DNA of 64,000 nt from an uncultured Dehalococcoidales bacterium. GTDB lineage: Bacteria > Chloroflexota > Dehalococcoidia > Lucifugimonadales > Lucifugimonadaceae. Position numbers and translations under genes: made by a program. Location: NCBI GenBank assembly GCA_964472915.1, contig CAYYMP010000002.1:240-64239 (forward strand), given 5' to 3'. The notes below the pieces were generated by a model. That model was given only the letters and a program-made list of their open reading frames with translations. It made no database searches and was not told the DNA's origin. Shown one piece after another: positions 7,244-48,792 of this stretch. Positions within the stretch are counted from its first letter, which is position 1, and the number at the start of each line of letters is the position of its first letter.

Positions 7244-8914
7244 TTACTCTACTGCAACGAGATAGTCGTAATGGGGCTGTCCTCCCCACACAACTTCAAT
7301 TTCCAGATCACCGAACTTCTCTGCCAATTCGTTAGACAAACGCTCAATCACATCCGCACCTGTACCGTTCCCGGTATACACGGTGATGATTTCGGCGTCT
7401 GATGCCTTTGACTCTATTAGTTTCGTCAATACGAAATCACTATCTCGCCCAACTGCGATGATCTCGTCATCGAAAGTTGCGAACGTCATTCCTGCTTTTA
7501 TGTCGTGCCCGCCAATCGACACGTCACGGTTCGCCTTGCAAACGCACCCTTCTCCAATTTCTCCCGCAATATCCGACATTTCATCAACGTTGGCGTCTAA
7601 CGATTCATCGAGATTGAAGGCTAGAAGGGCGGCAACTCCGGTCTGAACCGATCTCGTTGGGACCACTCGTACCGTTTTGTCGGTCAGTTCATCAACGTGT
7701 TCGGCTGCGGCAATTATGTTTTTGTTGTTAGGAAGGAGGATCACCTGATCTGATGGAACTTTCTCAACTGCCTCTAACAACTCAGCCACCGAAGGATTCA
7801 TCGAATCACCACCTTCGATGACGTATGTCGCACCCAATCCGGTGTTTTCGATTAGATCCGACATCCCTTCGCCAGCTGCAACGGCAACTACAGCGATTGG
7901 AGGAGAGTCCAACTTCTCTGGGCCGGTACGCTGAATGTCATCTCTACGATCAGAGGCCCAATCTGCAGCTTGCGTGTCCATGTTGGAGATTTCGATATTT
8001 GAGAGCGCCCCGTACTTAATTCCAGCGCTTAGTGCCTGGCCGGGATCTTCCATGTGGACATGCACCTTTGCGAGCCCAGGTGCCCCATCGACGATTGGCG
8101 ATCGACCGATCTTGGCCATGTGGTCACGTATTTGATCTAAATCGAGGTTCTCTGCTTCGATAGAAAATACTGTGCAGTAACCCCAGTCAGTTTCTTCTGC
8201 TTCGGAAACGAAATCCGAATCGACCGAGCCAGAGAATTTTCGACCCGATGGCATCGGCACTTCGATTTCTCGGGCGACAGGTTCGATGCCATTGATCGCC
8301 CGGACCATCCCGTCGAACATGACCGCTAGTCCGAAACCTCCCGAGTCAACGACTTCCGCTTCCGCCAGCACATCGAGCATTTCGGGTGTGCGGCGAACTG
8401 CGTCGATTGCGTTGTCTAGCAGCGCTTCGAGAGCCTCGGTTGCAGTACCGACTTCTCGCTCTGAAGCCTTCTCTGAGCATTCCCGGTAGATGGTGATCAT
8501 CGTCCCTTCGACGGGATTGGGAACCGATTGCTGTGAGAACTCATAAGCTCTTCCGAGGGCCTCTCCGAGAGCAGATGGGGGGATGCTGTCGGAGTCTTTC
8601 GCAACTTCAGCGAATCCCTTGAAAAGTTGTGCGAGAAGAAGCCCTGAGTTGCCGCGAGCTCCAAGCAACGATGCTCTCGCCATCTTGGAAGCGAGGTCTC
8701 CGGCACTCTGAGTGGATGCGTTTACGTCCTCGGATTCGACAATTGAGCGAAGAGTGAGAGACATGTTCGTGCCGGTATCGCCATCGGGAACCGGGAACAC
8801 GTTTAGCGCGTTGATCGTTGGGCGATTGGCAATCAGCGCGTCAGATGCCGCTTTTACCAATTTGAGCAGTAGTGCTCCATCGATTGATGCTGTTGATGAA
8901 GGTTGGGCGATCAT
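7244..8914 (-). CDS. DAK2-domain fatty acid kinase (FakA/YloV-like)
   Basis: INALNVFPVPDGDTGTNM, GARGNSG, VVDSGG, GGQPHY. Confidence 0.93.
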   Translation of the reverse strand: MIAQPSSTASIDGALLLKLVKAASDALIANRPTINALNVFPVPDGDTGTNMSLTLRSIVESEDVNASTQSAGDLASKMARASLLGARGNSGLLLAQLFKGFAEVAKDSDSIPPSALGEALGRAYEFSQQSVPNPVEGTMITIYRECSEKASEREVGTATEALEALLDNAIDAVRRTPEMLDVLAEAEVVDSGGFGLAVMFDGMVRAINGIEPVAREIEVPMPSGRKFSGSVDSDFVSEAEETDWGYCTVFSIEAENLDLDQIRDHMAKIGRSPIVDGAPGLAKVHVHMEDPGQALSAGIKYGALSNIEISNMDTQAADWASDRRDDIQRTGPEKLDSPPIAVVAVAAGEGMSDLIENTGLGATYVIEGGDSMNPSVAELLEAVEKVPSDQVILLPNNKNIIAAAEHVDELTDKTVRVVPTRSVQTGVAALLAFNLDESLDANVDEMSDIAGEIGEGCVCKANRDVSIGGHDIKAGMTFATFDDEIIAVGRDSDFVLTKLIESKASDAEIITVYTGNGTGADVIERLSNELAEKFGDLEIEVVWGGQPHYDYLVAVE

Positions 8915-9137
8915 TCCGTAGAAGTTGGCGAAGCCGTTGAAATTAGCGCGCCGCGTATTCCGACACTCCAGTCAAAACTCTCCTCTACAGGCATTAATTC
9001 CTGTTGTTCGCGCTAATACTGCATGTTAATCTAAATAGCTGGAATTCGACACGTAACCGATCTGGTCAACTGATCCAAAGTTATGAGAATTGAGTTCTTT
9101 CCCTACATTCAGGAATATTTCGAAAGTATCTGAAGTC

Positions 9138-9362
9138 ATGCCAAGCGCTGATCAAATAAGAGCAAAACTGGGTCTTGGGCCACGACCCAAGCCGATGTTC
9201 GGTCAAAACCGATCACACGCACTTAACGCAACTCGAAAAATCTCGAAGCCAAACCTGCAGAACCGTTGGGTTGTTATCGATGGACAGCGATACCGAGTAA
9301 AGCTGACCGCCCGTGAGCTTCGAACGCTCGACAAGCGCGGAGTTTCTCTGACCATCGACTAA
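9138..9362 (+). CDS. rpmB: 50S ribosomal protein L28 (cysteine-free)
   Basis: FGQNRSHA...PNLQ...LRTLDK; ATG 9138 preferred over TTG 9090; divergent from DAK2 as in the conserved locus. Confidence 0.88.
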   Translation: MPSADQIRAKLGLGPRPKPMFGQNRSHALNATRKISKPNLQNRWVVIDGQRYRVKLTARELRTLDKRGVSLTID

Positions 9363-9383
9363 ACGATGGTCGAATATGCGTTG

Positions 9384-9412
9384 AAACCCTTCTCGACCGA
9401 GAGGGGTTTTTT
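9384..9412 (+). terminator. Intrinsic terminator after rpmB
   Basis: AAACCCTTCTC-gacc-GAGAGGGGTTT then T run. Confidence 0.8.
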
Positions 9413-9430
9413 GTTGCCTAAAATTTCCTC

Positions 9431-10096
9431 ATGATGATCAATCCGAAATTCGCCGCCGCCTTTTTTGACCTTGATGGCACGTTGGTCGACACAGGTCCGC
9501 CGCATAGACAGGCAGAGTTGCAAACCCTGAACGCTTACGGCATACCTGAGATTGCACCTGATCACCCTGTCACATTCGGAAAAGGAGTGATGCCTGGAGT
9601 TCAGCTCGTTGCTGAACACTACGGAATCGAGGATCAAGAAGCGCTCCTCGCTGAATACGTAAAGCAGTGGCACATCGTGACAGCCAATGGCATTGAGATG
9701 CTGCCCGGCGCCCGGGATGCCGTGACCAGCGCGGTCATTTACGGTGCTTCTGTGGGGTTGGTCACATCAGGCGACAGCAAATACGCCAATACTTTCATTG
9801 AAAAATCTGGACTTGCTGAATCTTTTTCAACCGTCGTGACGCTGGATGACGTTGCAAACATGAAACCGCATCCCGAGCCGTATTTGACCGCCGCAGAGAA
9901 TCTGGGCATTCAGCCCGGGCACTGTCTTGTGTTTGAGGATTCAGAAACCGGGTTCGTATCAACACGAGCTGCCGGTATGACGAGTGTCGGAGTTGGTCCA
10001 GTAGCCATCGAATTATCTGAATCTGAAGAACGTGGACCAGATATGGCGATCGAGTCGTTCGTGGGCTTCGATATTTGGGGTGTTCGACCTAGATAG
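9431..10096 (+). CDS. HAD family phosphatase
   Basis: FDLDGTLVDT, KPHPEPY, VFEDS. Confidence 0.9.
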   Translation: MMINPKFAAAFFDLDGTLVDTGPPHRQAELQTLNAYGIPEIAPDHPVTFGKGVMPGVQLVAEHYGIEDQEALLAEYVKQWHIVTANGIEMLPGARDAVTSAVIYGASVGLVTSGDSKYANTFIEKSGLAESFSTVVTLDDVANMKPHPEPYLTAAENLGIQPGHCLVFEDSETGFVSTRAAGMTSVGVGPVAIELSESEERGPDMAIESFVGFDIWGVRPR

Positions 10097-10097
10097 G

Positions 10098-10763
10098 CTA
10101 CGAGCCGGCTGATCGAATCGCCTCGATACCGATCCTCATTCCGTCCGGGTAATTGAACACACCGGTGCCTGATATGAGCGTCGTCGCTCCAGCATCGATA
10201 ACCGCGCCCGCAGTATCGACCTTGATACCACCGTCTACTGCGATTTCTAGTTCGTGGCTTGCCAGTTGTGCCATATCCTTTAGCTCTTCGATCTTTGGGA
10301 GCATTTCCGGCATGAACGACTGACCGCCAAATCCGGGCTCGACAGTCATAACGAGCACACGCTCAATCAGTGGCAGTGCCGACTGAATTACCGAAGCAGG
10401 TGTGTCAGGTTTGAGAGACACCGCTGCCGACATACCAGCTACACGGGCATCTTCAAGAGACGCTTCGAGGTCATCGCACGCTTCAACGTGCATCGTGAAA
10501 ATGTTTCCGCCAGCTTCCGCAAATTCTCGAACGTAACGGGCAGGTTCGATGACCATCATGTGAACGTCGATAGGGAGCTTCGTGAGTGGACGAATTGCTT
10601 CAAGAACCGGAATTCCAACGGTGATATTCGGCACGAAAGTTCCATCCATCACGTCAAAGTGCAGTTCATCTGCGCCAGCCTCTTCAACAGCCGCAATTGA
10701 ATCCGCCAAATGTGCGAAGTCGGCAGCAAGGAGAGATGGAGAAACTTTGATGTGTGGTGCCAT
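10098..10763 (-). CDS. rpe: Ribulose-phosphate 3-epimerase
   Basis: PSLLAADF, HFDVMDG, MTVEPGFGGQ, VDGGI. Confidence 0.96.
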   Translation of the reverse strand: MAPHIKVSPSLLAADFAHLADSIAAVEEAGADELHFDVMDGTFVPNITVGIPVLEAIRPLTKLPIDVHMMVIEPARYVREFAEAGGNIFTMHVEACDDLEASLEDARVAGMSAAVSLKPDTPASVIQSALPLIERVLVMTVEPGFGGQSFMPEMLPKIEELKDMAQLASHELEIAVDGGIKVDTAGAVIDAGATTLISGTGVFNYPDGMRIGIEAIRSAGS

Positions 10764-10769
10764 GACGAG

Positions 10770-11504
10770 TTATCCGAGTCGTTCAGCGAGTGCGTCGGGA
10801 TGATACGACATGATCGTGTCAGCTCCAGCGTTAGCTGCAGCAACCATTGCGTCCACGTCGTCCATGATTCCAGGACCCGAAGCGATTATCTTCTTGCCAG
10901 CTTCGTGAGCTTGAGAAACTTCCTCTACGGTGATCGGGTATCGAACATATATCCAGTTCGAGTACGGGTCTGAAATCGCCATCGGTAATTCAGGCGCAGT
11001 GTTTGCAACAGTGGAGCACTGGAAATCTGAGCTTCCTTCGTAGAAACGCCTTCGAACGTCCACCGAAAGGTGAATAAGCCCGAAACCAACGGTGTTACCC
11101 ATTAGTCCTCGTTCTTCAAGCGCCCGGCAAATCTTGTTGATGCTTCCGGGAGGAAGAGTTTTTAGTTCAATCGCGAGTGTCGTGTCCGCAGTACCGTGAT
11201 CTCGAACGACATCCAGCGTTTCTTCCAGAGTAGGGATCTTTTCACCTGCGAATTTTTCGCCCCACCAGCTACCCGCATCTAGCTCTCGCAGTTCGGCGAG
11301 TGTCATCCCTTCAACCCGGCCTGACCCGTTTGTGGTGCGATCAACGGTGTCGTCGTGAACGACTACGAGTTCGTCATCCGACGTTCCCCGCAGGTCGATC
11401 TCTATCGCCATGCCTTTTTCAAGTGCCGCTTTGAACGCTACGAGCGTGTTTTCCGGATACACCTCGTCGAGACCGCGGTGCGCAATGATTACTGGTGAGC
11501 TCAT
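10770..11504 (-). CDS. Glycerophosphodiester phosphodiesterase family protein
   Basis: IAHRG, PENTL, EIDL, VHDDTVDRTT, IPTLEE. Confidence 0.9.
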   Translation of the reverse strand: MSSPVIIAHRGLDEVYPENTLVAFKAALEKGMAIEIDLRGTSDDELVVVHDDTVDRTTNGSGRVEGMTLAELRELDAGSWWGEKFAGEKIPTLEETLDVVRDHGTADTTLAIELKTLPPGSINKICRALEERGLMGNTVGFGLIHLSVDVRRRFYEGSSDFQCSTVANTAPELPMAISDPYSNWIYVRYPITVEEVSQAHEAGKKIIASGPGIMDDVDAMVAAANAGADTIMSYHPDALAERLG

Positions 11505-19158: not shown

Positions 19159-19374
19159 TTACGCGGCGGAGTCGAAGTCGGTTGCATCGTGCATTCGCCG
19201 GAAGGCGTTGGCAGCGTTCTTCCCAAGCCGGTCGAGTGACTCGCGAGAACCGCCTCGTTCTTGCGCAACGGCCAGTTCACCGAGGGCTTCGAGGAGTTCG
19301 CTTGCGATTGTCATGCCGGTGTGAGTCACAGGTTGATCCTTCCCTGTTGAGAATTTCAGTATTTCAGCTGCCAT
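19159..19374 (-). CDS. Small hypothetical protein (71 aa)
   Basis: ATG-started ORF in an intergenic gap, amphipathic helical composition; no recognised family. Confidence 0.5.
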   Translation of the reverse strand: MAAEILKFSTGKDQPVTHTGMTIASELLEALGELAVAQERGGSRESLDRLGKNAANAFRRMHDATDFDSAA

Positions 19375-19649
19375 TAGTTCGAAGTTACCCGGTAACGGAA
19401 TTCATTGCGTTGAGATTTTTGAACGTCTTTTAGGAAGTTTGTCCTATCTATGAATCCGAGTCAGTGGCGTCGAAAACCACATTAAGTTTCAGGGTTGCGG
19501 TATTACCGATGTGTTTGTTCGACCAGTGCCTTGTGTGTGATCTCACTACTGTGGACAGGCGCGACCCGGGCGAAACTGATGTGAAGCAATGGGTACCCGT
19601 AATAGGTATGGTTGCGCGTGGATTGCGCGCGCATAGATCTGCTGACCAA

Positions 19650-21992
19650 ATGACCACAGGCGCACTACAAATAGATTTCAACCCGCAACCGAAAGGGATT
19701 GCGGTTGTTTGCTCTACGTCGATCTCCGAAATAACCGGAAACGGCAACTATTCCGCGCTCCAGGATCTTTTGGATGGGTACGCGACCGAATTCCAACAGG
19801 TTCACGTATTCGCTCCCGGCAAACCAGAATCTCTGAATTCGAGGATGGATCACAGGATCAACTGGATTCACGGCAGGAAATTCGGTTCGTCGCTAACTGC
19901 GCTTTCACTTAGCGGTGTGGCTAATCGAAAACTGCTCAAGGATGTCGAATTAATTCGAACATTCGGTCCTGCTGCGGGACTTGCAGGACGACTTTATGGA
20001 CGTATTGCCAAGGCACCGGTGGTTTCGTCACTCGATGATTTGGCGGGTAACCGTTGGCGCGAGTCGCGGAAATTACGATCAAAACTTCTGAACGGCGAAA
20101 ACAAGTTCGGACCCTTCAGTGCCGAATATATCTCTGCAAAACATTCCTGGGAGACCGAGCTGCTTTCGGAGATGTCGCCTGCAGGTCAAATTCTGATTGG
20201 ACCAGTTGGCATTCAGACAGATATTTACTCGCCGTCCAAGCTAATTGATCCTGCCAGAAACCCAATTGTCTTATGGGCGATTCCTCTAAATACCGATGAA
20301 AACCTGAATGCCTTGTTCACGACGGCTGAACGAGGATCGCAGCTGATTCCAGACATCAACTTCGTAGCAATTGGCGACGACAGCCAGGTGCAGGTGGCGC
20401 AAAACATCGCATCCGAACGAGACTTGCCTGTCACTGCACTGAAGTACGAGGAAGTCGAACCGCTCGTCGACCTGATTGAGCGCAGTTGGGCATGTGTGAC
20501 CGCAGCCGACAACGGCTTCCCCTCAGGGCTTGCAATGTTGTCGTTCTCGGCTGGAATACCCGTAATTTCAACCGATCAAATCGACGAGGCGTACGGGTTC
20601 AAAAACCATTTGAACTACGTTGAAATCACCGATGACTCTACTGATGGCGTCGCTTTCGGCTTGAACATGCTTCGCAACTGGAACTCGTTCGCACTCAGAG
20701 TAGCTCGCAGTGGTCAAAGCCTGATCGAATCTCGCTATTCAACTCTTGCAGTTGCTCGCCGCGAGGCTGAACGACTCGCAGATATTGCAAACGGGATTGA
20801 GTTTGCTGCTGCCGTCTCAACTCCGGTTGAGAGCCAGGACGATGTTTCAGCGCAGTCCGTAGCCGAGCAGCATGACACAGAGTTGACAGACGATGCAGGT
20901 GGTTCAGATGGATTTGATTTGGTCGCTGCGGCCCTGTCCGACCTGCACGGCGGCACGAGCAGTGACACATCTATTCCATCGGACTCAGTCGCTGAAGCTG
21001 GTTCTGAAGAACCAATGGCCGAACAAACTCCGATGCAGGATGCTGAACTGAGTCAGGACGCTATATCAGCGTTGTTCGCTGAGCCAGAGTCGCCTGAATC
21101 CGAACCGGCTCCCGACACATCCAGCAACGAGCAAATGAGTCAGGACGCTATTTCTGCCCTTTTCGCTGGTACTTCTGCAGATGAAGAAAATGTCGAGTCG
21201 AATGGTGAACCGCTCGTGACTGAAAGCTCGGGAGTTCAGGTTCTAAGCCAGGATCTGATCTCAGCACTCTTTGCTGCAGACGAGTCGTCTGATGAGAATT
21301 CAGAACCCGCTCCAGAAACACCGGTCGATGAAGGCACCGGAGAGATGGATCAGGACGCGATCTCGGCGCTGTTCGCCGCCAATAGCGATTCCTCTGATGG
21401 AAACGAGGACACCTCTCCCTCAACTCCGAACGATGAAGACTCAGGCGTTGTGAACCAGGACGCAATTTCTGCATTGTTCGCCGGCGACGAACTAACTGAA
21501 GAATTAACTCCTGAACCTGAGAGCACAGAGCCTGAGACGTCATCGGATATGGGTCAAGACGCCATATCCGCGCTTTTCGAGACGGAAAGTTTCACGCTTG
21601 AATCTGATGATTCAGAGCCTGCCGCATCATCAGAGATGGGTGAGGACGCGATCTCGGCACTATTCGAAGAATCGGCATCAGACGCGACAAACGAACCTGC
21701 AGATTCGGGTGAAATGGATCAAGACGCCATATCAGCGTTGTTTGGCACAGATGGAGATCTCAACGATTCCATAAGTTCAGATGTGATCGACGAACCTGTC
21801 GAAGATGCCCCTGGTGCGGACCTGGAAGACTTGGAAGAAGATGTTCAAGTTGTCCAGGTGACGATTGGTGATGAGGATGAAGAGGTTGAACCGGAGTTCA
21901 TGGTTGAGTCTTTTGATGAGATCGAAGTAGAAGATGAACTCGACGTTGATGCCCTCATCGAAGCTGCAAAGCACGACGAAGAACTCGTTTAG
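19650..21992 (+). CDS. GT-B (GT4-like) glycosyltransferase-like protein with long acidic repeat tail
   Basis: GT4-like segments (QVHVFAP, GPVGIQTDIYSP, GFPSG...AGIPVIST, GQSLIESRYS); D/E/S-rich C-terminus. ATG 19650 preferred; frame open from 19464. Confidence 0.75.
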   Translation: MTTGALQIDFNPQPKGIAVVCSTSISEITGNGNYSALQDLLDGYATEFQQVHVFAPGKPESLNSRMDHRINWIHGRKFGSSLTALSLSGVANRKLLKDVELIRTFGPAAGLAGRLYGRIAKAPVVSSLDDLAGNRWRESRKLRSKLLNGENKFGPFSAEYISAKHSWETELLSEMSPAGQILIGPVGIQTDIYSPSKLIDPARNPIVLWAIPLNTDENLNALFTTAERGSQLIPDINFVAIGDDSQVQVAQNIASERDLPVTALKYEEVEPLVDLIERSWACVTAADNGFPSGLAMLSFSAGIPVISTDQIDEAYGFKNHLNYVEITDDSTDGVAFGLNMLRNWNSFALRVARSGQSLIESRYSTLAVARREAERLADIANGIEFAAAVSTPVESQDDVSAQSVAEQHDTELTDDAGGSDGFDLVAAALSDLHGGTSSDTSIPSDSVAEAGSEEPMAEQTPMQDAELSQDAISALFAEPESPESEPAPDTSSNEQMSQDAISALFAGTSADEENVESNGEPLVTESSGVQVLSQDLISALFAADESSDENSEPAPETPVDEGTGEMDQDAISALFAANSDSSDGNEDTSPSTPNDEDSGVVNQDAISALFAGDELTEELTPEPESTEPETSSDMGQDAISALFETESFTLESDDSEPAASSEMGEDAISALFEESASDATNEPADSGEMDQDAISALFGTDGDLNDSISSDVIDEPVEDAPGADLEDLEEDVQVVQVTIGDEDEEVEPEFMVESFDEIEVEDELDVDALIEAAKHDEELV
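21048..21746 (+). repeat. Eight intragenic peptide repeats xx(Q/E)D(A/L)ISALF
   Basis: LSQDAISALF, MSQDAISALF, LSQDLISALF, MDQDAISALF, VNQDAISALF, MGQDAISALF, MGEDAISALF, MDQDAISALF, separated by acidic linkers; codons differ between copies. Confidence 0.93.
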
Positions 21993-23963: not shown

Positions 23964-25247
23964 TTAAACGGCTCCGAGTTTTCTCAGGATGTCTCCAGCA
24001 ATCAGGAAGCATCCTGCGTGAAAGCCGATGACGCTCAGACCCGTCCCTTGTGCTGTATAGCCAGCCGGGTACAACCCTGGGACATCGACGGATTCAAACG
24101 TTGCCTGGTCGACCACGAGTTGTTTCAGCTGGAAGCGATAGTTGTCACGTTTGTCATGAAAAGTGAACGGTCCTAGCGGGTCGATGACCGAGTAATCAGG
24201 ATCGCCACCGATTTCCACAACAACGTGATCAACCTGTACCTGCACCTGTCCTTCCGGTGTGTCGATAGTCACAACACCTTCGTCACCAAAATCCCTCAGG
24301 TGAGACTCGTACAGCAAGCCCATGCGTGCCTGGTCACCTTGCAAAATCTCTGCCCAACGTTGGTAGTAAGGCAAGAACTGCGATTCACCGATGAGTCGAA
24401 GGTGAGAATCGGGTTGCTGTCGCATGACATATACAACCGTCCGACCGTCGTCGTGGAGTTCTTGCGCAGCCCAGTCGGCCGAGCGACCTCCGCCAATGAC
24501 CATTACCCGCTCACCCGGATAATCCTCGACCGACGTGTAGGCATCCGTGACATACGGTTTTTCGGTGCCGTTGGCATCCAGTGTTCTTAGTTCTGATCGA
24601 GGCCCGATCGCAAAGACAAAGTAGTTGCAGGAGTACTTGACTGGCTTTCCTGTTTCAGACGACAAAGCTGTTACAACGAACCGAGCGTCAGAGTCCGATT
24701 TCTCAACTCGTGTGACTTTCATCCCTTCCTGGATGTACGGAGACAGACCAAGTTTGTTGGCATACGCCTGGTAATAATCGACGAGATCGTCACGGTGTAC
24801 CAGGGCGTTGAGGTCGCGATCACGTCCTGCATCTTTGTAGAACTGACCTATCGGGTAGTGGGCAAGTTCCATCCAATGCGCTGGACCGAGCGTCATCTGG
24901 GTCTTAGGTACGTGATTCCACAGTCCGCCAGCGCCATCAGTCGACAGTAACTTCCAATTGATTCGGTCTTTCTTCGTGAACTCTAGAGTCCAGTCATCGA
25001 GAGGAACGGCGTCTTGCTCGGGGTGATGTCTCATCCGAAAGAACTCGATTGGTCGATTGCCTTGCTCGAGGAGTTCGTGGAGGTCTAACGCGAGAGGATT
25101 GGCACGATTTACGTCAGCGGCGACCTGGACCTCGTCAGACGGAAATTCAAACTTTCCTGTGAATCTCGGGTGCCATCCCTCGAGGGTGGCGGCTACCCCA
25201 AGTCCTCCTGGACCTGCTCCAGCAATGATTACTTCGTGGTGTTCCAA
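23964..25247 (-). CDS. FAD/NAD(P)-dependent oxidoreductase, OSGIN/FMO-like
   Basis: GAGPGG FAD motif, GGLW, second Rossmann VIGGGRSAAD, PGLYPAG. Confidence 0.8.
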   Translation of the reverse strand: MEHHEVIIAGAGPGGLGVAATLEGWHPRFTGKFEFPSDEVQVAADVNRANPLALDLHELLEQGNRPIEFFRMRHHPEQDAVPLDDWTLEFTKKDRINWKLLSTDGAGGLWNHVPKTQMTLGPAHWMELAHYPIGQFYKDAGRDRDLNALVHRDDLVDYYQAYANKLGLSPYIQEGMKVTRVEKSDSDARFVVTALSSETGKPVKYSCNYFVFAIGPRSELRTLDANGTEKPYVTDAYTSVEDYPGERVMVIGGGRSADWAAQELHDDGRTVVYVMRQQPDSHLRLIGESQFLPYYQRWAEILQGDQARMGLLYESHLRDFGDEGVVTIDTPEGQVQVQVDHVVVEIGGDPDYSVIDPLGPFTFHDKRDNYRFQLKQLVVDQATFESVDVPGLYPAGYTAQGTGLSVIGFHAGCFLIAGDILRKLGAV

Positions 25248-25300
25248 AATTTCGCGCGTTGACAGTGAATTGAATGAATAACTGAGATCCGACCGGGTAC

Positions 25301-25887
25301 CTAGCTACGAGCCATTGCCCATGTGCGGACGGTTGAGTCTACCGTGAACTCCATCAGTATGTTGAATCCGCGACGTTCATAAAATCCAACGTTTTCTTCC
25401 GTCATCGTTTCTAGGTGCAGAGGTAGAGAGGAGTCCTCAGCGATTCTTACGGTCTGACCGAGGATCGTGGAACCAAGCCCTGTTCCTTGCGCTTCAAGAG
25501 GTGTTCCGAGGGCAGCAAGTACCAGTGAGGATCCGGCATGAGTTCCTTGTGGATCTTTTCAGCCTCATCAGAAAATCTACCGAATCGAGCGAAAGCACCC
25601 ATACCGAGTACAAACGGAGCTTTCCAGAATCCGATTTTGAGAAGTCGCCAGGACGTCATTGCAGTTTCGTTTGGAGGAAGTAGGCCTGCCAAACTCTTCA
25701 ATTCTGGATCAGAGACGACTCGACCCCACCTGTGACAGTAGGAATTGGTGAGTCGGAAGAACCACTGCAGTTGTTTCAGACGCTTTGAGGCGTCCTGCAT
25801 CAAATAGGCCGCCATCGGGTCGTTGAAGAAAGCCGGAGCGACATTTTTAGCTGCGCGAACTATTTGCGGTTCGGAAAGATTCTCCAA
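25301..25887 (-). pseudogene. GNAT acetyltransferase split by a frameshift near 25514
   Basis: 5' frame ...AFFNDP...PHWYL; the shifted frame continues ALGTPLEAQGTGLGS...LHLETMTEENVGFYERRGF...WAMARS* (stop 25301-25303). Confidence 0.8.
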
Positions 25888-25951
25888 ATTTGTCCTGACC
25901 TTCTGCTTGGCTCGGTCTGGTGAACAAATCGAGTCTAGCAACGATGAGGAT

Positions 25952-26893
25952 TTACGAAGCAGCGGCCGACATTTCACACAACGCCTGTAGGGAGTCCCAC
26001 TCTTCGTCGACGCGTCGTTGAATTTCATCGACCATTGACGGGTCGTCACCGTTCAGGATGTGCGAAAAACGCTTTTGCATCTTGAGTGCATCGACGACGG
26101 GCCGTCGCTTCCTAGATCCGGACGACATTTTCCACACACCATCGATGACTTCGTAGAGTGGCCACATTCCCGCCTCGACCATGACCTTTGAGACTTCCAT
26201 GGTCTTGTCGGTGTCGAAACGCCAACCACGATCACAAGGAGTTAGAACATTGATGAATGCCGGTCCGTCAGCCTGCTCAGCCTTGCGAACCTTTGTCATC
26301 AGGTCTTTCCAGTTGTGAGTTGCCGCCTGGGCCACATACGGAATGTTGTGAGCAGCAACAATACGGGTCATGTCCTTGTGCCACTCGGTCTTTCCTGTGA
26401 CCTCGTCACCTGATGGCGTAGTCGTAGTCCATGCTCCAAGAAGTGTTGCACTACTTCGTTGAATTCCGGTGTTCATGTAGCCCTCGTTGTTGAGGCACAC
26501 GTACACGAACTTGTGACCACGTTCGAGGGCACCACTTAGCCACTGGAAACCAATGTCGTACGTCGCTCCGTCTCCTGCGAAGACAACAAACGTCATTGGT
26601 CGATCTTCGAGCTTTCCTTTTCGGACCAAAGCTTTGTAAGCCGCCTCAACACCAGAAATGGTGGTCGCTGAGTTTTCGAACGCGCTATGTATGACCGGAA
26701 CTTTCCACGCAGTATTTGGGAACCTGGTTGTTGCTACTTCAAGACAACCCGTTGCGAGCGCTACGACCGGTGGGTTTTCGAGTGCGGCAAGTATTTGCCG
26801 TACCGAAATCGGTTCAGCACAACCGGCGCACAACGCGTGCCCGTTTCCGAATCGATCAGGCTGGAGACTTAGTTCTCTGAGTTTCAGTGTCAT
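25952..26893 (-). CDS. porB: 2-oxoacid (pyruvate):ferredoxin oxidoreductase beta subunit
   Basis: CAGC, GCLEV, GDGATYDIG...NNEGYMNTG TPP motif. Confidence 0.92.
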   Translation of the reverse strand: MTLKLRELSLQPDRFGNGHALCAGCAEPISVRQILAALENPPVVALATGCLEVATTRFPNTAWKVPVIHSAFENSATTISGVEAAYKALVRKGKLEDRPMTFVVFAGDGATYDIGFQWLSGALERGHKFVYVCLNNEGYMNTGIQRSSATLLGAWTTTTPSGDEVTGKTEWHKDMTRIVAAHNIPYVAQAATHNWKDLMTKVRKAEQADGPAFINVLTPCDRGWRFDTDKTMEVSKVMVEAGMWPLYEVIDGVWKMSSGSRKRRPVVDALKMQKRFSHILNGDDPSMVDEIQRRVDEEWDSLQALCEMSAAAS

Positions 26894-47715: not shown

Positions 47716-48792
47716 ATGCACAAGGTTGTCGCGTTGGTGATAACGGCACTTCTTCTTTCGTACCTGGGGTGGCTCGCATTCCGAGGAACTCCACCTGGCT
47801 TCCGAACGATTGTAGTGTTGGAGAGATCTTCCGAGTCCGGCGAACTCCCAACCGAACTCGAAATTGTGACGCTGCTCGGGTTTGACGCAATTCCTTCGAT
47901 TGAAGATCCACGGTTCGTCGATGCTCTTCATGCAGATGAGACTTACGACCCGGAGGAGCTCGTGCTTGGTGTTGAGATTGATGGTGACGCGCGTGCTTAT
48001 TCAGTCCCAGTGTTGAGTCGGCACGAGATCGTGAACGATGTTGTAGGTGGTAAGCCCATCGCAGTTACCTGGTGACCTCTTTGCTTTACTGGAATTGGAT
48101 ATTCCAGAGAGATCGATGGTCAGGTGGTCGAGTTCGGAGTTTCGGGCAAACTCATCATGAACGCGCTCGTTATGTATGACCGCGCAACGGAATCCTTGTG
48201 GTCGCAATTCCTGTCTCGCTCCGTCGATGGTGAGTTTGCGGGAACAGAGCTTGAAATCGTCCCTCTCACTCTTACAACGTGGGAGGCATGGAAATCGGCG
48301 TATCCCGAGACGATCGCAATGCGTAAAACTCGTCGGACTACAGATCCATACGTTGGTTATTACGCCGGACGGTCAGTTGGTGTGATCGGAGAAACCAACG
48401 TAGATATTCGTCTACCAACCAAAGAACTCGTCCTCGGGATTGGATTCGACGATGCACCTCTCGCGTTTCCACACTCTGTCCTCAGATCCGAAGAACTGCT
48501 GAATCTGCAGCACGCCGGAAGCCCAACGTTGGTTTACTTCGATCCAGCAACGGATACAGCTATTGCTTACAAAGCAGAAGTTGGTGATGTGTCGCTGGAG
48601 TTTGAGCTGGTTGAGGCGAACGGACGGATCATGATGAGTGATACACAAACCGGTTCTTTATGGGTTCCATTTACCGGGCAAGCAATTTCGGGTGAGTTGG
48701 CTGGGGCGTCGCTCGATCGAACTCACTCTGTAAATGCCTTCTGGTTTTCGTGGAGCGATTTCTATCCGAACACCGAAATATGGTCTTCCTGA
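47716..48792 (+). CDS. DUF3179 family selenoprotein (UGA 48073-48075 read as Sec, UPLC motif)
   Basis: ORFs 47716-48075 and 48124-48792 are in frame across one TGA: HEIVND...VTW-U-PLCFTG...FGVSGKL...MYDRATESLWSQ; hairpin after the UGA. Confidence 0.88.
48077..48111 (+). promoter_or_regulatory. Candidate SECIS of DUF3179 gene
   Basis: CTGGAAT-tggat-ATTCCAG stem (48089-48107), loop 20 nt after UGA; lower CTCT/AGAG pairing. Confidence 0.7.

What the first reader, a model, noticed from the sequence alone, without database searches (positions are those of the whole stretch)
21048..21992. Eight FliM/CheZ-like docking motifs on an acidic tether fused to a GT-B domain
Seen: eight xx(Q/E)D(A/L)ISALF motifs spaced about 24-38 aa apart by non-repetitive D/E/S-rich linkers, plus a terminal LDVDALI. 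The motif is conserved while codons and linkers diverge, which implies selection on the peptide rather than recent slippage. Established: the FliM N-terminal LSQxEIDALL and CheZ C-terminal SQDQVDDLL helices bind phosphorylated CheY-type receiver domains. Inference: a multivalent scaffold or sink for activated response regulators (or another groove-bearing partner), coupled to a sugar-nucleotide-binding fold. No chemotaxis or flagellar genes are in this window. Best candidate for an undescribed system.
Basis: partly seen in the sequence, partly recalled or inferred. Interest (0 to 1): 0.75.

Follow-up and report, generated by a model that had tools for sequence, protein, structure and literature searches.

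The report
Dead glycosyltransferase with eight-fold docking tail
A marine SAR202 bacterium encodes a probably inactive sugar-transferase-like domain fused to an extremely acidic floppy tail with eight copies of a strictly conserved short helix (QDAISALF), most likely a multi-site docking strip whose partner, possibly the chemotaxis signal protein CheY, is still unknown.

Summary
The gene (window 19650-21992, +, 780 aa) has eight QDAISALF-type motifs with scrambled synonymous codons and unrelated linkers. Orthologs at 35-45% identity keep the same 8-mer in 0-10 copies.

The N-terminal 383 aa fold as a GT4 GT-B domain (pLDDT 86.5; Foldseek E 5e-16). All canonical donor-binding motifs are replaced, so it is probably a pseudo-enzyme.

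The tail has 115 D/E and 1 K/R. The motif appears to be an amplified form of a single C-terminal helix in a sister family that sits at the same chromosomal slot beside a glycan-assembly cluster.

The family is confined to a few marine SAR202 Chloroflexota, including Ca. Lucifugimonas marina. Every holder has archaellins and CheA/CheW but no FliM or CheF.

The motif shares only half of the FliM 'EIDALL' signature. A CheY-plus-peptide fold gave weak support (0.37 against a best control of 0.00). Most chemotactic relatives lack the protein.

Verdict: a real, undescribed multivalent docking scaffold. The CheY partner is possible (about 0.2) but unproven.

The parts
19159..19374 (-). Conserved 71-aa ORF transcribed divergently from the main gene. 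It contains a helix-turn-helix-like segment (SRESLDRLGKNAANAFRRM), ends in -AA, and is a possible regulator.
   Evidence: There are 27 homologs, on the same contigs as the main gene's orthologs. It lies adjacent to the main gene or its sister family in G001, G355, G402, G393 and G368. No Pfam match.
19650..21992 (+). Whole coding sequence (780 aa plus stop) of the GT4-like / acidic-tail protein.
   Evidence: ORF. The start at M63 of the maximal ORF comes from ortholog alignment A1 and the sequence itself.
19650..20798 (+). N-terminal GT-B (GT4-like) domain, aa 1-383, with degenerate donor-binding motifs. Probably non-catalytic.
   Evidence: AF2 pLDDT 86.5, pTM 0.83. Foldseek top hits are HepE, MshA, PimB', BshA and GlgM, E down to 5e-16. 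The Gly loop, His, GRLxxxKG and LEAMA are replaced. Pfam Glycos_transf_1 scores only 13.4 bits against a cut-off of 26.4.
20910..20942 (+). Conserved helix GFDLVAAALSD in the linker after the GT-like domain. It follows the same acidic-then-hydrophobic-xx-hydrophobic-hydrophobic pattern as the repeats.
   Evidence: D423, V425, A426 and A428 are invariant across 20 orthologs. Coordinates.
21054..21743 (+). Array of eight QDAISALF-type motifs. Cores lie at 21054-77, 21141-64, 21249-72, 21351-74, 21456-79, 21555-78, 21642-65 and 21720-43, separated by D/E/S/T/P-rich linkers.
21744..21989 (+). C-terminal acidic module. It includes DVQVVQVTI (21840-21866), EPEFMVESFDEIEVED (21888-21935) and the terminal helix LDVDALIEAAK (21939-21971). 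The terminal helix is equivalent to LIAAILEGKDVDP of the orthologs and EAEKLAxMLExLGV of the sister family.
   Evidence: Alignment A1 columns 960-1051, sister family sequences, coordinates.

Best explanation
The gene encodes a cytoplasmic two-part scaffold found only in a small group of marine SAR202 Chloroflexota.

Part one is a GT4-type GT-B domain. It has kept its fold and a strongly conserved family-specific surface, but it has lost the residues that bind and activate a nucleotide sugar. It therefore acts as a binding or anchoring module rather than as an enzyme (shown: fold and motif loss; inferred: no catalysis).

Part two is a roughly 400-residue polyanionic disordered tail. It displays eight copies of a short amphipathic helix, (G)D(M/L)xQDAISALFA, at intervals of about 30 residues, plus three related helices. 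Each helix is inferred to insert its Ile/Leu/Phe face into a groove on a partner protein. One molecule could then capture or concentrate many partner copies by avidity, with copy number (0-10 among orthologs) setting the capacity.

The array arose by amplification of a single C-terminal helix. That helix is still present once in the sister family, which sits at the same chromosomal slot.

The partner is not identified. The best single candidate, at about 0.2, is phosphorylated CheY of the F1 chemosensory system, which in these archaellated bacteria has neither FliM nor CheF to dock on.
For: Motif conservation:
- Selection acts on the peptide. Synonymous sites are scrambled, linkers are about 34% identical, and there is no DNA tandem repeat.
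- The same 8-mer is found in orthologs of 35-45% identity, in 0-10 copies, mostly spaced 24-36 aa.
- The motif occurs in no other gene of the MAG. The exact back-translated QDAISALF pattern hits no other gene of the complete Lucifugimonas genome. In a 5.8-billion-protein search it occurs only with this N-domain.

Domain and tail:
- GT-B/GT4 fold.
- The Gly loop, His, Arg/Lys pair and first Glu of EX7E are replaced in all members, while true GT4s in the same alignment keep them.
- The tail has 115 D/E against 1 K/R, and there is no hydrophobic N-terminal segment.

Origin:
- Sister proteins P0035, P0036 and P0053 carry one C-terminal helix, EAEKLAxMLExLGV. P0053 lies at the same argJ-to-trxB-like slot.

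Motility context:
- All six holder genomes examined have archaellins and CheW/CheA.
- FliM is not found in any of the six. CheF is not found in the five other holders tested.
- In a 61-genome sample of the same GTDB family, 22 have archaellin, 13 have CheW (all among the 22), and 5 have the superfamily (all among the 13).
- Lucifugimonas CheY keeps the T. maritima-type MGQQ...AGAKDF alpha4-beta5 segment.

Complex prediction:
- ESMFold2 on CheY plus a 36-aa motif peptide scored ipSAE 0.37 (runs 0.39, 0.37, 0.36); the best of 3 controls was 0.00. The verdict was weak support.
- The mark was reached by 58 of 80 solved complexes and 2 of 110 mismatched pairs. At 0.60 or under it was reached by only 7 of those 80 and by both mismatches that passed.
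- The runs agree in at least 75% of contacts and the partner pLDDT is at least 52.
- My own alignments were used, so these counts hold only roughly.

Literature:
Against: - No binding partner is shown by any experiment or strong prediction.
- Loss of canonical motifs does not prove loss of all catalysis or ligand binding.
- Against CheY specifically: 8 of 13 CheW-positive, archaellin-positive relatives lack the whole superfamily.
- Three of those eight, with CheY 74-78% identical to the Lucifugimonas CheY, were identified.
- In Lucifugimonas the gene is about 1.7 Mb from the che cluster and 2.7 Mb from the main archaellin cluster.
- The motif lacks the E and D of EIDALL.
- The ancestral helix belongs to a protein beside a GT4 / Bac_transf / GT2 glycan cluster, which points to a glycan-related origin.
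- The nested co-occurrence may simply reflect one clade that kept many genes. Relatives are not independent.
- The weak complex score may come from the model's memory of solved CheY-FliM peptide structures.
Confidence: 0.55

Rival explanations
1. CheY-P dock. The eight helices are FliM-N-like binding sites for phosphorylated CheY. The protein would act as a sink, buffer or adaptor for the F1 chemosensory output in archaellated SAR202, which lack both FliM and CheF.
For: - The Q-x-x-I-x-A-L-hydrophobic pattern is shared with the EIDAL(L) motif that binds CheY-P (PMC9126983, PMC6946799).
- Holders all have che genes and archaellins; FliM is absent in all six examined and CheF in the five other holders tested.
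- The CheY alpha4-beta5 segment is of the bacterial type.
- Complex fold: weak support, 0.37 against a best control of 0.00. The mark was reached by 58 of 80 solved complexes and 2 of 110 mismatches, but at 0.60 or under by only 7 of 80 and by both mismatches. At least 75% of contacts agree between runs and the partner pLDDT is at least 52.
- An adaptor is explicitly missing in Chloroflexota (PMC12488501).
Against: - Most che-positive relatives lack the protein.
- E and D of EIDALL are absent.
- The gene is not linked to che or arl loci.
- The motif derives from a helix of a glycan-cluster protein.
- A weak pass is 'more often wrong than right unless the guess was likely beforehand', and it may reflect memory of solved CheY-FliM complexes.
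Confidence: 0.2
2. Glycan-machinery scaffold. The pseudo-GT4 domain pairs with an active glycosyltransferase or its substrate, in the manner of non-catalytic GT-B partners. The helices would bind that enzyme complex or fold back into the protein's own inter-domain cleft, organising or regulating envelope or archaellin glycosylation.
For: - The sister protein P0053 lies immediately after GT4, Bac_transf and GT2 genes at the syntenic slot.
- The family-specific residues of the GT-like domain are highly conserved: 75% mean column identity with many invariant positions. This implies a ligand or partner site.
- Chloroflexota archaellins appear O-glycosylated (PMC12488501), which would also explain co-occurrence with archaellins.
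Against: - In the holders the neighbouring glycan genes are gone; the order is argJ, then a small ORF, then this gene, then the trxB-like gene.
- Nothing links the helices to any glycosyltransferase.
- Archaellin-positive genomes mostly lack the protein: 17 of 22 in the sample.
Confidence: 0.17
3. Dock for a MinD/FlhG/ParA-type ATPase or other positioning factor. The protein would be an acidic-repeat polar hub, analogous in role to HubP, that places chemosensory arrays or archaella.
For: - The EIDAL motif of FliM is also necessary and sufficient for binding the MinD-like ATPase FlhG (10.1101/2022.04.21.489128).
- Archaellated Chloroflexota encode MinD-like proteins (PMC12488501).
- The architecture, acidic repeats on a folded anchor, is hub-like.
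- There is co-occurrence with motility genes.
Against: - No MinD/ParA gene is near the locus.
- There is no membrane or peptidoglycan anchor.
- This was not tested by any computation here.
Confidence: 0.07
4. Active, atypical glycosyltransferase whose tail is its own substrate or product carrier. The invariant Ser/Thr of each motif would be O-glycosylated, as SdgB does on acidic Ser-Asp repeats.
For: - SdgB with a bound SD peptide is among the structural neighbours (rank 47).
- The motif's fifth residue is Ser, sometimes Thr, and rarely Asn.
Against: All four canonical GT4 donor-binding elements are replaced in every member. The whole 8-mer is conserved, not only the Ser.
Confidence: 0.06

Closest known systems
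FliM / FliY N-terminal EIDAL(L) motif (binds CheY-P and FlhG)
   Same: A short acidic amphipathic helix on a flexible segment. It shares Q-x-x-I-x-A-L-hydrophobic spacing. It occurs in organisms with an F1-type CheY whose alpha4-beta5 segment is T. maritima-like.
   Different: Here there are eight internal copies rather than one N-terminal copy. E and D of EIDALL are replaced by A and S, and the last residue is F. There is no CheC-like or SPOA domain, and the host has no flagellum. Binding to CheY is not shown; in-silico support is weak only.
CheF, the archaeal CheY-to-archaellum adaptor (PF04283)
   Same: It would fill the same gap, a CheY-P receiver at an archaellum, in organisms that lack it.
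   Different: There is no sequence or fold relation. CheF has two PH-like domains and a helical C-terminal tail domain (PMC9126983). PF04283 is absent from the five other holder genomes tested. Most archaellated, chemotactic relatives lack the present protein.
Retaining GT4 glycosyltransferases (HepE 4xsu, MshA 3c48, PimB' 3oka, BshA 3mbo, GlgM 6tvp)
   Same: Two-Rossmann GT-B fold with the C-terminal helix crossing back; Foldseek probability 1.00. A profile links it to true GT4 sequences (P0037, E 9e-12).
   Different: 10-16% identity. It scores below the Pfam cut-off. The Gly loop, His, GRLxxxKG and the first Glu of EX7E are all replaced. It also carries a 400-aa acidic tail.
Non-catalytic GT-B partners such as GtfB of the accessory-Sec GtfA/GtfB pair (from my own knowledge, not tested here)
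   Same: A GT-B fold that has lost donor binding and serves as a binding or scaffolding subunit. The sister family is encoded beside an intact GT4.
   Different: No partner glycosyltransferase has been identified for this protein, and no such tail is known in GtfB.
Acidic-repeat polar hubs (HubP/FimV) and multivalent linker proteins (EPYC1, CsoS2) (from my own knowledge)
   Same: Short conserved helices repeated at regular intervals in a disordered chain, with variable copy number, acting through multivalency.
   Different: No LysM, transmembrane segment or FimV domain. The anchor domain is different, the motif sequence is unrelated, and the client is unknown.

Membership tests
GT4 glycosyltransferases (Pfam Glycos_transf_1 / CAZy GT4) | GT-B fold of two Rossmann-like domains | tested here: met
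   AF2 pLDDT 86.5. Foldseek hits to HepE, MshA, PimB' and BshA, E 5e-16 to 1e-11.
GT4 glycosyltransferases (Pfam Glycos_transf_1 / CAZy GT4) | Score above the Pfam gathering threshold | tested here: not met
   13.4 bits against a cut-off of 26.4, E 0.058. No NCBIfam match.
GT4 glycosyltransferases (Pfam Glycos_transf_1 / CAZy GT4) | EX7E motif: first Glu in the 'LEAMA' segment before G-x-P-V | tested here: not met
   The family reads GLAM or GFGM where aligned GT4s read LEAM.
GT4 glycosyltransferases (Pfam Glycos_transf_1 / CAZy GT4) | Arg/Lys pair binding the donor diphosphate (GRLxxxKG after the first strand of the C-domain) | tested here: not met
   The family reads LWAGPxxxDDS, with a mostly non-basic residue in place of Arg and Asp/Glu in place of Lys.
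GT4 glycosyltransferases (Pfam Glycos_transf_1 / CAZy GT4) | N-terminal Gly-rich loop and the His after strand 4 of the N-domain | tested here: not met
   The family reads TSAPIS instead of a GG loop and VRTFG where GT4s read xHxH.
FliM/FliY-type EIDAL(L) CheY-binding motif | Sequence signature E-I-D-A-L-L | tested here: not met
   The motif reads A-I-S-A-L-F. I, A and L are kept, E and D are absent, and the last residue is F (signature from PMC9126983 and PMC6946799).
FliM/FliY-type EIDAL(L) CheY-binding motif | Located at the N-terminus of a flagellar C-ring protein (CheC-like / SPOA domains) | tested here: not met
   The copies are internal, in the C-terminal tail of a GT-like protein. FliM and FliMN_C families were not found in the MAG, and FliM was not found in five other holders.
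FliM/FliY-type EIDAL(L) CheY-binding motif | Activation-dependent binding to CheY | tested here: inconclusive
   ESMFold2 scored 0.37 against a best control of 0.00, a weak-support verdict. Phosphorylation dependence cannot be tested in silico.
CheF (PF04283) archaeal adaptor | Match to the CheF-arch family | tested here: not met
   Pfam finds no such domain in the protein. PF04283 is absent from the five other holder genomes tested.
Non-catalytic GT-B scaffold (GtfB-like) | GT-B fold lacking donor-binding residues, and forming a complex with an active GT | tested here: inconclusive
   The fold and the motif loss are shown. Complex formation was not tested. Only the sister family has an adjacent GT4.

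The most novel reading that the evidence does not exclude
The protein is the bacterial answer to the missing CheF. It would be a multivalent CheY-P receptor that couples the F1 chemosensory pathway to the horizontally acquired archaellum, or buffers that coupling, in Lucifugimonas-type SAR202. It would have arisen by amplifying a pre-existing acidic helix into FliM-like docking sites on a retired glycosyltransferase.
Probability: 0.15. Interest if true: 0.85.

Novelty: new variant of a known kind. Interest (0 to 1): 0.6.

Why it matters
SAR202 are among the most abundant bacteria of the dark ocean, and one member, Ca. Lucifugimonas marina, is now in culture.

These bacteria run an archaeal motor, the archaellum, from a bacterial-type chemosensory pathway. 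Two recent papers state that the adaptor between CheY and that motor is unknown in Chloroflexota (PMC12488501, PMC13747009).

This protein carries up to ten copies of a strictly conserved helix that partly resembles FliM. In the genomes sampled it is found only where both che genes and archaellins are present. That gives a concrete, cheap bench test: peptide plus CheY, with and without BeF3-.

Even if CheY is not the partner, the protein is a clean natural example of two things. One is a short linear motif array evolving by amplification, with copy number varying between close relatives. The other is a glycosyltransferase fold retired into a scaffold.

Tried and rejected
- **Recent slippage.** Tandem Repeats Finder found only two trivial 9-nt repeats outside the motifs, so this is not recent slippage.
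- **Family databases.** Pfam and NCBIfam on the whole protein gave nothing usable.
- **PDB by sequence.** The N-domain profile gave only a spurious SopD match at E 0.14. The motif profile gave no match at E up to 10.
- **First AF2 run.** With 18 close orthologs the model reached pLDDT 58.9 and was discarded. It was refolded with 41 sequences including distant GT4s.
- **Literature strings.** DAISALF, QDAISAL and ISALFA gave no relevant paper.
- **Earlier scan notes by sequence.** Nothing found.
- **Nearby stand-alone receiver gene.** One lies about 4-7 kb downstream in two orthologous loci. The matching stretch of the window, 25247-25952, holds no receiver gene, so the neighbour is not conserved.
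- **Relaxed EIDAL-like motif scan of the MAG.** It returned only this gene plus six scattered hits. The closest, on C36, lies in a low-complexity, evidently non-coding frame.
- **Own CheY.** The MAG's cheA contig ends inside cheA, so its cheY is not assembled. The complex test therefore used the Lucifugimonas CheY and ortholog peptide.
- **Small divergent ORF as relative or partner.** hhalign against the sister family gave probability 0.2%. PDB matches are insignificant, the best being KorA-type HTH at E about 1.
- **Archaeal ribosomal P-stalk tail.** I recalled a resemblance (acidic linker ending in LSALFG). I considered it and set it aside because the host is a bacterium with no such stalk. 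It was not tested.
- **Order-level search.** The family was found in only 1 of 201 genomes, and in 1 of 151 around Lucifugimonas. This shows narrow distribution but adds no functional clue.
Full report
**Observation.** The region lies in one long ORF on the + strand (19464-21992). Alignment with twenty relatives shows that all begin at MT(E/G)EALQIDF, so the real start is the ATG at 19650 and the product is 780 aa. The tail holds seven QD(A/L)ISALF and one EDAISALF, with starts 26-36 residues apart, and a terminal LDVDALIEAAK. Tandem Repeats Finder sees no repeat array across the motifs. The motif DNA copies are only 63-78% identical over 41 nt and 58-88% over the 24-nt core. Within the core, Ala, Ser, Ile and Leu each use three to five different codons. 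The linkers are 18-28 aa long and about 34% identical to each other. The tail of 397 aa has 115 Asp+Glu and one Lys+Arg.

**Conservation and distribution.** A search of 5.8 billion proteins found 20 relatives, all unnamed metagenome proteins of 35-98% identity. Nearly all carry the same 8-mer, in 0 to 10 copies, mostly 24-36 residues apart. A second search seeded only from the tail recovered the same family and nothing else.

An exhaustive profile search of 1.84 billion cluster representatives found 16 family entries at E 3e-20 or better, many of them fragments. Beyond those came a handful of distant relatives and then ordinary GT4 enzymes. The motif is unique to this gene in the window's own MAG, which is 2.03 Mb and 68% complete. 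The exact back-translated QDAISALF pattern hits the complete genome of Candidatus Lucifugimonas marina JH545 only in the orthologous gene.

The organisms are marine Chloroflexota of class Dehalococcoidia, the SAR202 group. Within the GTDB family that holds both the MAG and Lucifugimonas, only 2 of 61 sampled species have the protein. In the order, 1 of 201 has it. Gene order is conserved wherever it occurs: argD, plsY, argB, argJ on the minus strand, then a small ORF, then this gene, then a thioredoxin-reductase-like gene, a DedA/VTT protein and a flavin monooxygenase.

**The N-terminal domain.** Sequence methods barely recognise it: Glycos_transf_1 scores 13.4 bits against a cut-off of 26.4, and the PDB search by sequence gave nothing. 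With an alignment extended by distant relatives, AlphaFold2 gave a confident model (pLDDT 86.5, pTM 0.83). Its best structural matches are all GT4 GT-B enzymes: HepE, a mannosyltransferase, GlgM, MshA, PimB', BshA and sucrose-phosphate synthase, with E from 5e-16 and probability 1.00.

The same alignment includes genuine GT4 sequences, and four differences stand out:
- The GT4s show GRLxxxKG where this family has LWAGPxxxDDS.
- The GT4s show LEAMAxGxPV where the family has GLAMxAASAGIPL.
- The GT4s show xHxH where the family has VRTFG.
- The GT4s show a Gly-Gly loop where the family has TSAPIS.

The residues that hold the donor's diphosphate and sugar are thus replaced in every member. Meanwhile the family's own residues are strongly conserved, with 75% mean column identity. 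I read this as a retired enzyme fold that still binds something. An earlier first-stage note on this window reached the same view from the EX7E segment alone (e1-5452763); my alignment-based test agrees.

**Origin of the motif.** The nearest outgroup proteins (P0035, P0036, P0039, P0053) share the family's TTDP-xxP segment. Three of them end in a single acidic helix, (F)D-x-x-EAEKL-x-x-ML-x-x-LGV. P0053 sits at the same argJ-to-trxB-like slot, but there it is preceded by an intact GT4, a Bac_transf phosphoglycosyl transferase and a GT2.

The long members of the present family end in FDxIDVDxxLIAAILEGKDVDP, which in the window is FDEIEVEDELDVDALIEAAK. The short members (P0016-P0021) have one QDAISALF close to the C-terminus. 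All these helices share an acidic run followed by hydrophobic-x-x-hydrophobic-hydrophobic. The simplest history is that one ancestral C-terminal helix was duplicated many times in the Lucifugimonas-type lineage and then fixed as QDAISALF.

**Context in the cell.** These bacteria have an archaellum and a bacterial-type F1 chemosensory system.
- The MAG has an archaellin, a CheW and a truncated cheA.
- Five other holder genomes all have archaellins (3-15 hits) and CheW/CheA.
- Lucifugimonas has cheA-cheC-cheD-cheY-cheB-cheR.
- FliM and FliN are not found in the MAG. FliM and CheF are not found in the five other holders.

Two papers state that Chloroflexota with archaella lack the archaeal adaptor CheF and that another component may have evolved (PMC12488501, PMC13747009).

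In the 61-genome family sample, 22 have archaellin and 13 have CheW, all 13 among the 22. Five have this protein or its sister form, all five among the 13. By a simple hypergeometric count, 5 of 13 against 0 of 48 has p of about 2e-4. But the genomes are relatives and the five may form one clade. The CheY of sister-family holder G402 is the closest to the Lucifugimonas CheY at 88% identity. The number therefore overstates the case. Eight chemotactic, archaellated relatives lack the whole superfamily, so it cannot be a general requirement for coupling CheY to the archaellum. Three of them, with CheY 74-78% identical, were identified.

**Is the motif FliM-like?** The published signature is EIDAL(L) at the N-terminus of FliM and FliY. 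It binds CheY-P (PMC9126983, PMC6946799) and also the MinD-like ATPase FlhG (10.1101/2022.04.21.489128). AISALF keeps I, A and L, and a preceding Gln that I recall from FliM sequences. It lacks both acidic residues and ends in Phe, so membership in that motif class fails on sequence. The likeness is to an acidic amphipathic helix in general, and the ancestral EAEKLAxML helix shows the same pattern.

On the receiving side, Lucifugimonas CheY is about equally close to Pyrococcus and Thermotoga CheY overall. In the alpha4-beta5 segment, however, it reads like Thermotoga, with MGQQ...AGAKDF, and Thermotoga CheY has a solved FliM-peptide complex (4IGA).

The result was:
- ipSAE 0.39, 0.37 and 0.36, against a best of three controls of 0.00. 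The verdict was 'weak support'.
- The mark is reached by 58 of 80 solved complexes and 2 of 110 mismatches. At 0.60 or under it is reached by only 7 of the 80 and by both passing mismatches.
- Contacts agree at 75% or more between runs, and the partner pLDDT is at least 52.
- My own alignments were used, and the pass may come from the model's memory of solved CheY-FliM structures.

This raises the CheY reading a little but does not establish it.

**Mechanism proposed.** The protein is a cytoplasmic scaffold; I see no signal peptide or membrane segment in the sequence. The retired GT4 domain anchors it to some ligand or partner. The polyanionic tail offers eight equivalent helical docking sites plus three related ones. 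Regular spacing of about 30 residues, and a copy number that varies even between close relatives (8 copies here, 9 in an 83%-identical relative), fit a capacity- or avidity-setting array.

Shown: the architecture, the selection on the motif, the loss of catalytic motifs, the lineage restriction and the nested co-occurrence. Inferred: non-catalysis, docking, and any particular partner.

My odds for the partner are:
- CheY-P, about 0.2.
- Glycan-assembly enzymes or the protein's own cleft, about 0.17.
- A MinD/FlhG-type ATPase, about 0.07.
- The tail as glycosylation substrate of an atypical active enzyme, about 0.06.
- The remainder is an unanticipated partner.

**A further part.** A 71-aa ORF (19159-19374, minus strand) lies between argJ and the gene in every locus examined. 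It has 27 homologs on the same contigs as the orthologs. It is adjacent to this gene or to its sister form in all five holders in the family sample. It has no Pfam family. Its second half looks like a helix-turn-helix, so it may be a divergently transcribed regulator. I could not fold or dock it.

**Novelty and verdict.** The fold is known, and the principle of multivalent short motifs on a disordered chain is known. The motif, its array, its fusion to a degenerate GT4 domain and its restriction to archaellated, chemotactic SAR202 are undescribed in Pfam, NCBIfam, the PDB and the literature searched. I rate it a new variant of a known kind, with interest 0.6. The finding is real and clean, and a cultured relative exists. 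A simple binding assay would address an openly stated question about how bacteria steer an archaellum. The present evidence for that specific link is weak and partly contradicted by the protein's distribution.

Noticed in passing
window 19159-19374 (-): Conserved 71-aa ORF transcribed divergently from the GT-like gene. It is present beside that gene or its sister family in every locus examined. It has an HTH-like second half, no Pfam family, and ends in -AA. Weaker paralogs occur in other genomes, mostly archaellin-positive ones.
   Followed up: partly
G355 (DUCO01000046, locus L007) C46:73445-74495: The ortholog in MAG UWMA-0331 is split into two reading frames at profile position 211. This is either a frameshift or pseudogene, or an assembly error.
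   Followed up: no
L013 (own genome C50) 8571-11338: The MAG's archaellin gene is followed on the opposite strand by two proteins that each carry two receiver domains (307 and 271 aa). They are possible motility-linked response regulators.
   Followed up: no
L017 4585-9446: In a relative with a 3.5-Mb contig, the syntenic slot holds GT4, Bac_transf, GT2 and then the sister pseudo-GT4 (P0053). This suggests that a glycan-assembly cluster was lost from this slot in the Lucifugimonas-type lineage.
   Followed up: partly
P0016-P0021, P0035/36/39/53, window 19159-19374: The short family members, the sister family and the small neighbouring ORF all end in Ala-Ala (…DDQAA, …EVAA, …DSAA). This may be a shared C-terminal signal such as a protease tag, or it may be coincidence.
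   Followed up: no
G001 (Ca. Lucifugimonas marina) C1:2983996-2992834 and elsewhere: There are up to 15 archaellin-family hits, including a run of six tandem full-length copies. That is an unusually large archaellin repertoire for a 3.1-Mb genome.
   Followed up: no
window 23964-25247 (-) and 47716-48792: First-stage notes flag a flavoprotein said to resemble OSGIN and a possible DUF3179 selenoprotein. I only saw that the former matches Pyr_redox_3 / FMO-like families, and that another DUF3179 gene lies on contig C50.
   Followed up: no
motif position 5 across orthologs: The Ser of QDAISALF is occasionally Thr (QDAITALF) and rarely Asn (QDAINALL). It aligns with the Asp of EIDALL. A phosphorylated or glycosylated hydroxyl at this position would be worth checking.
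   Followed up: no
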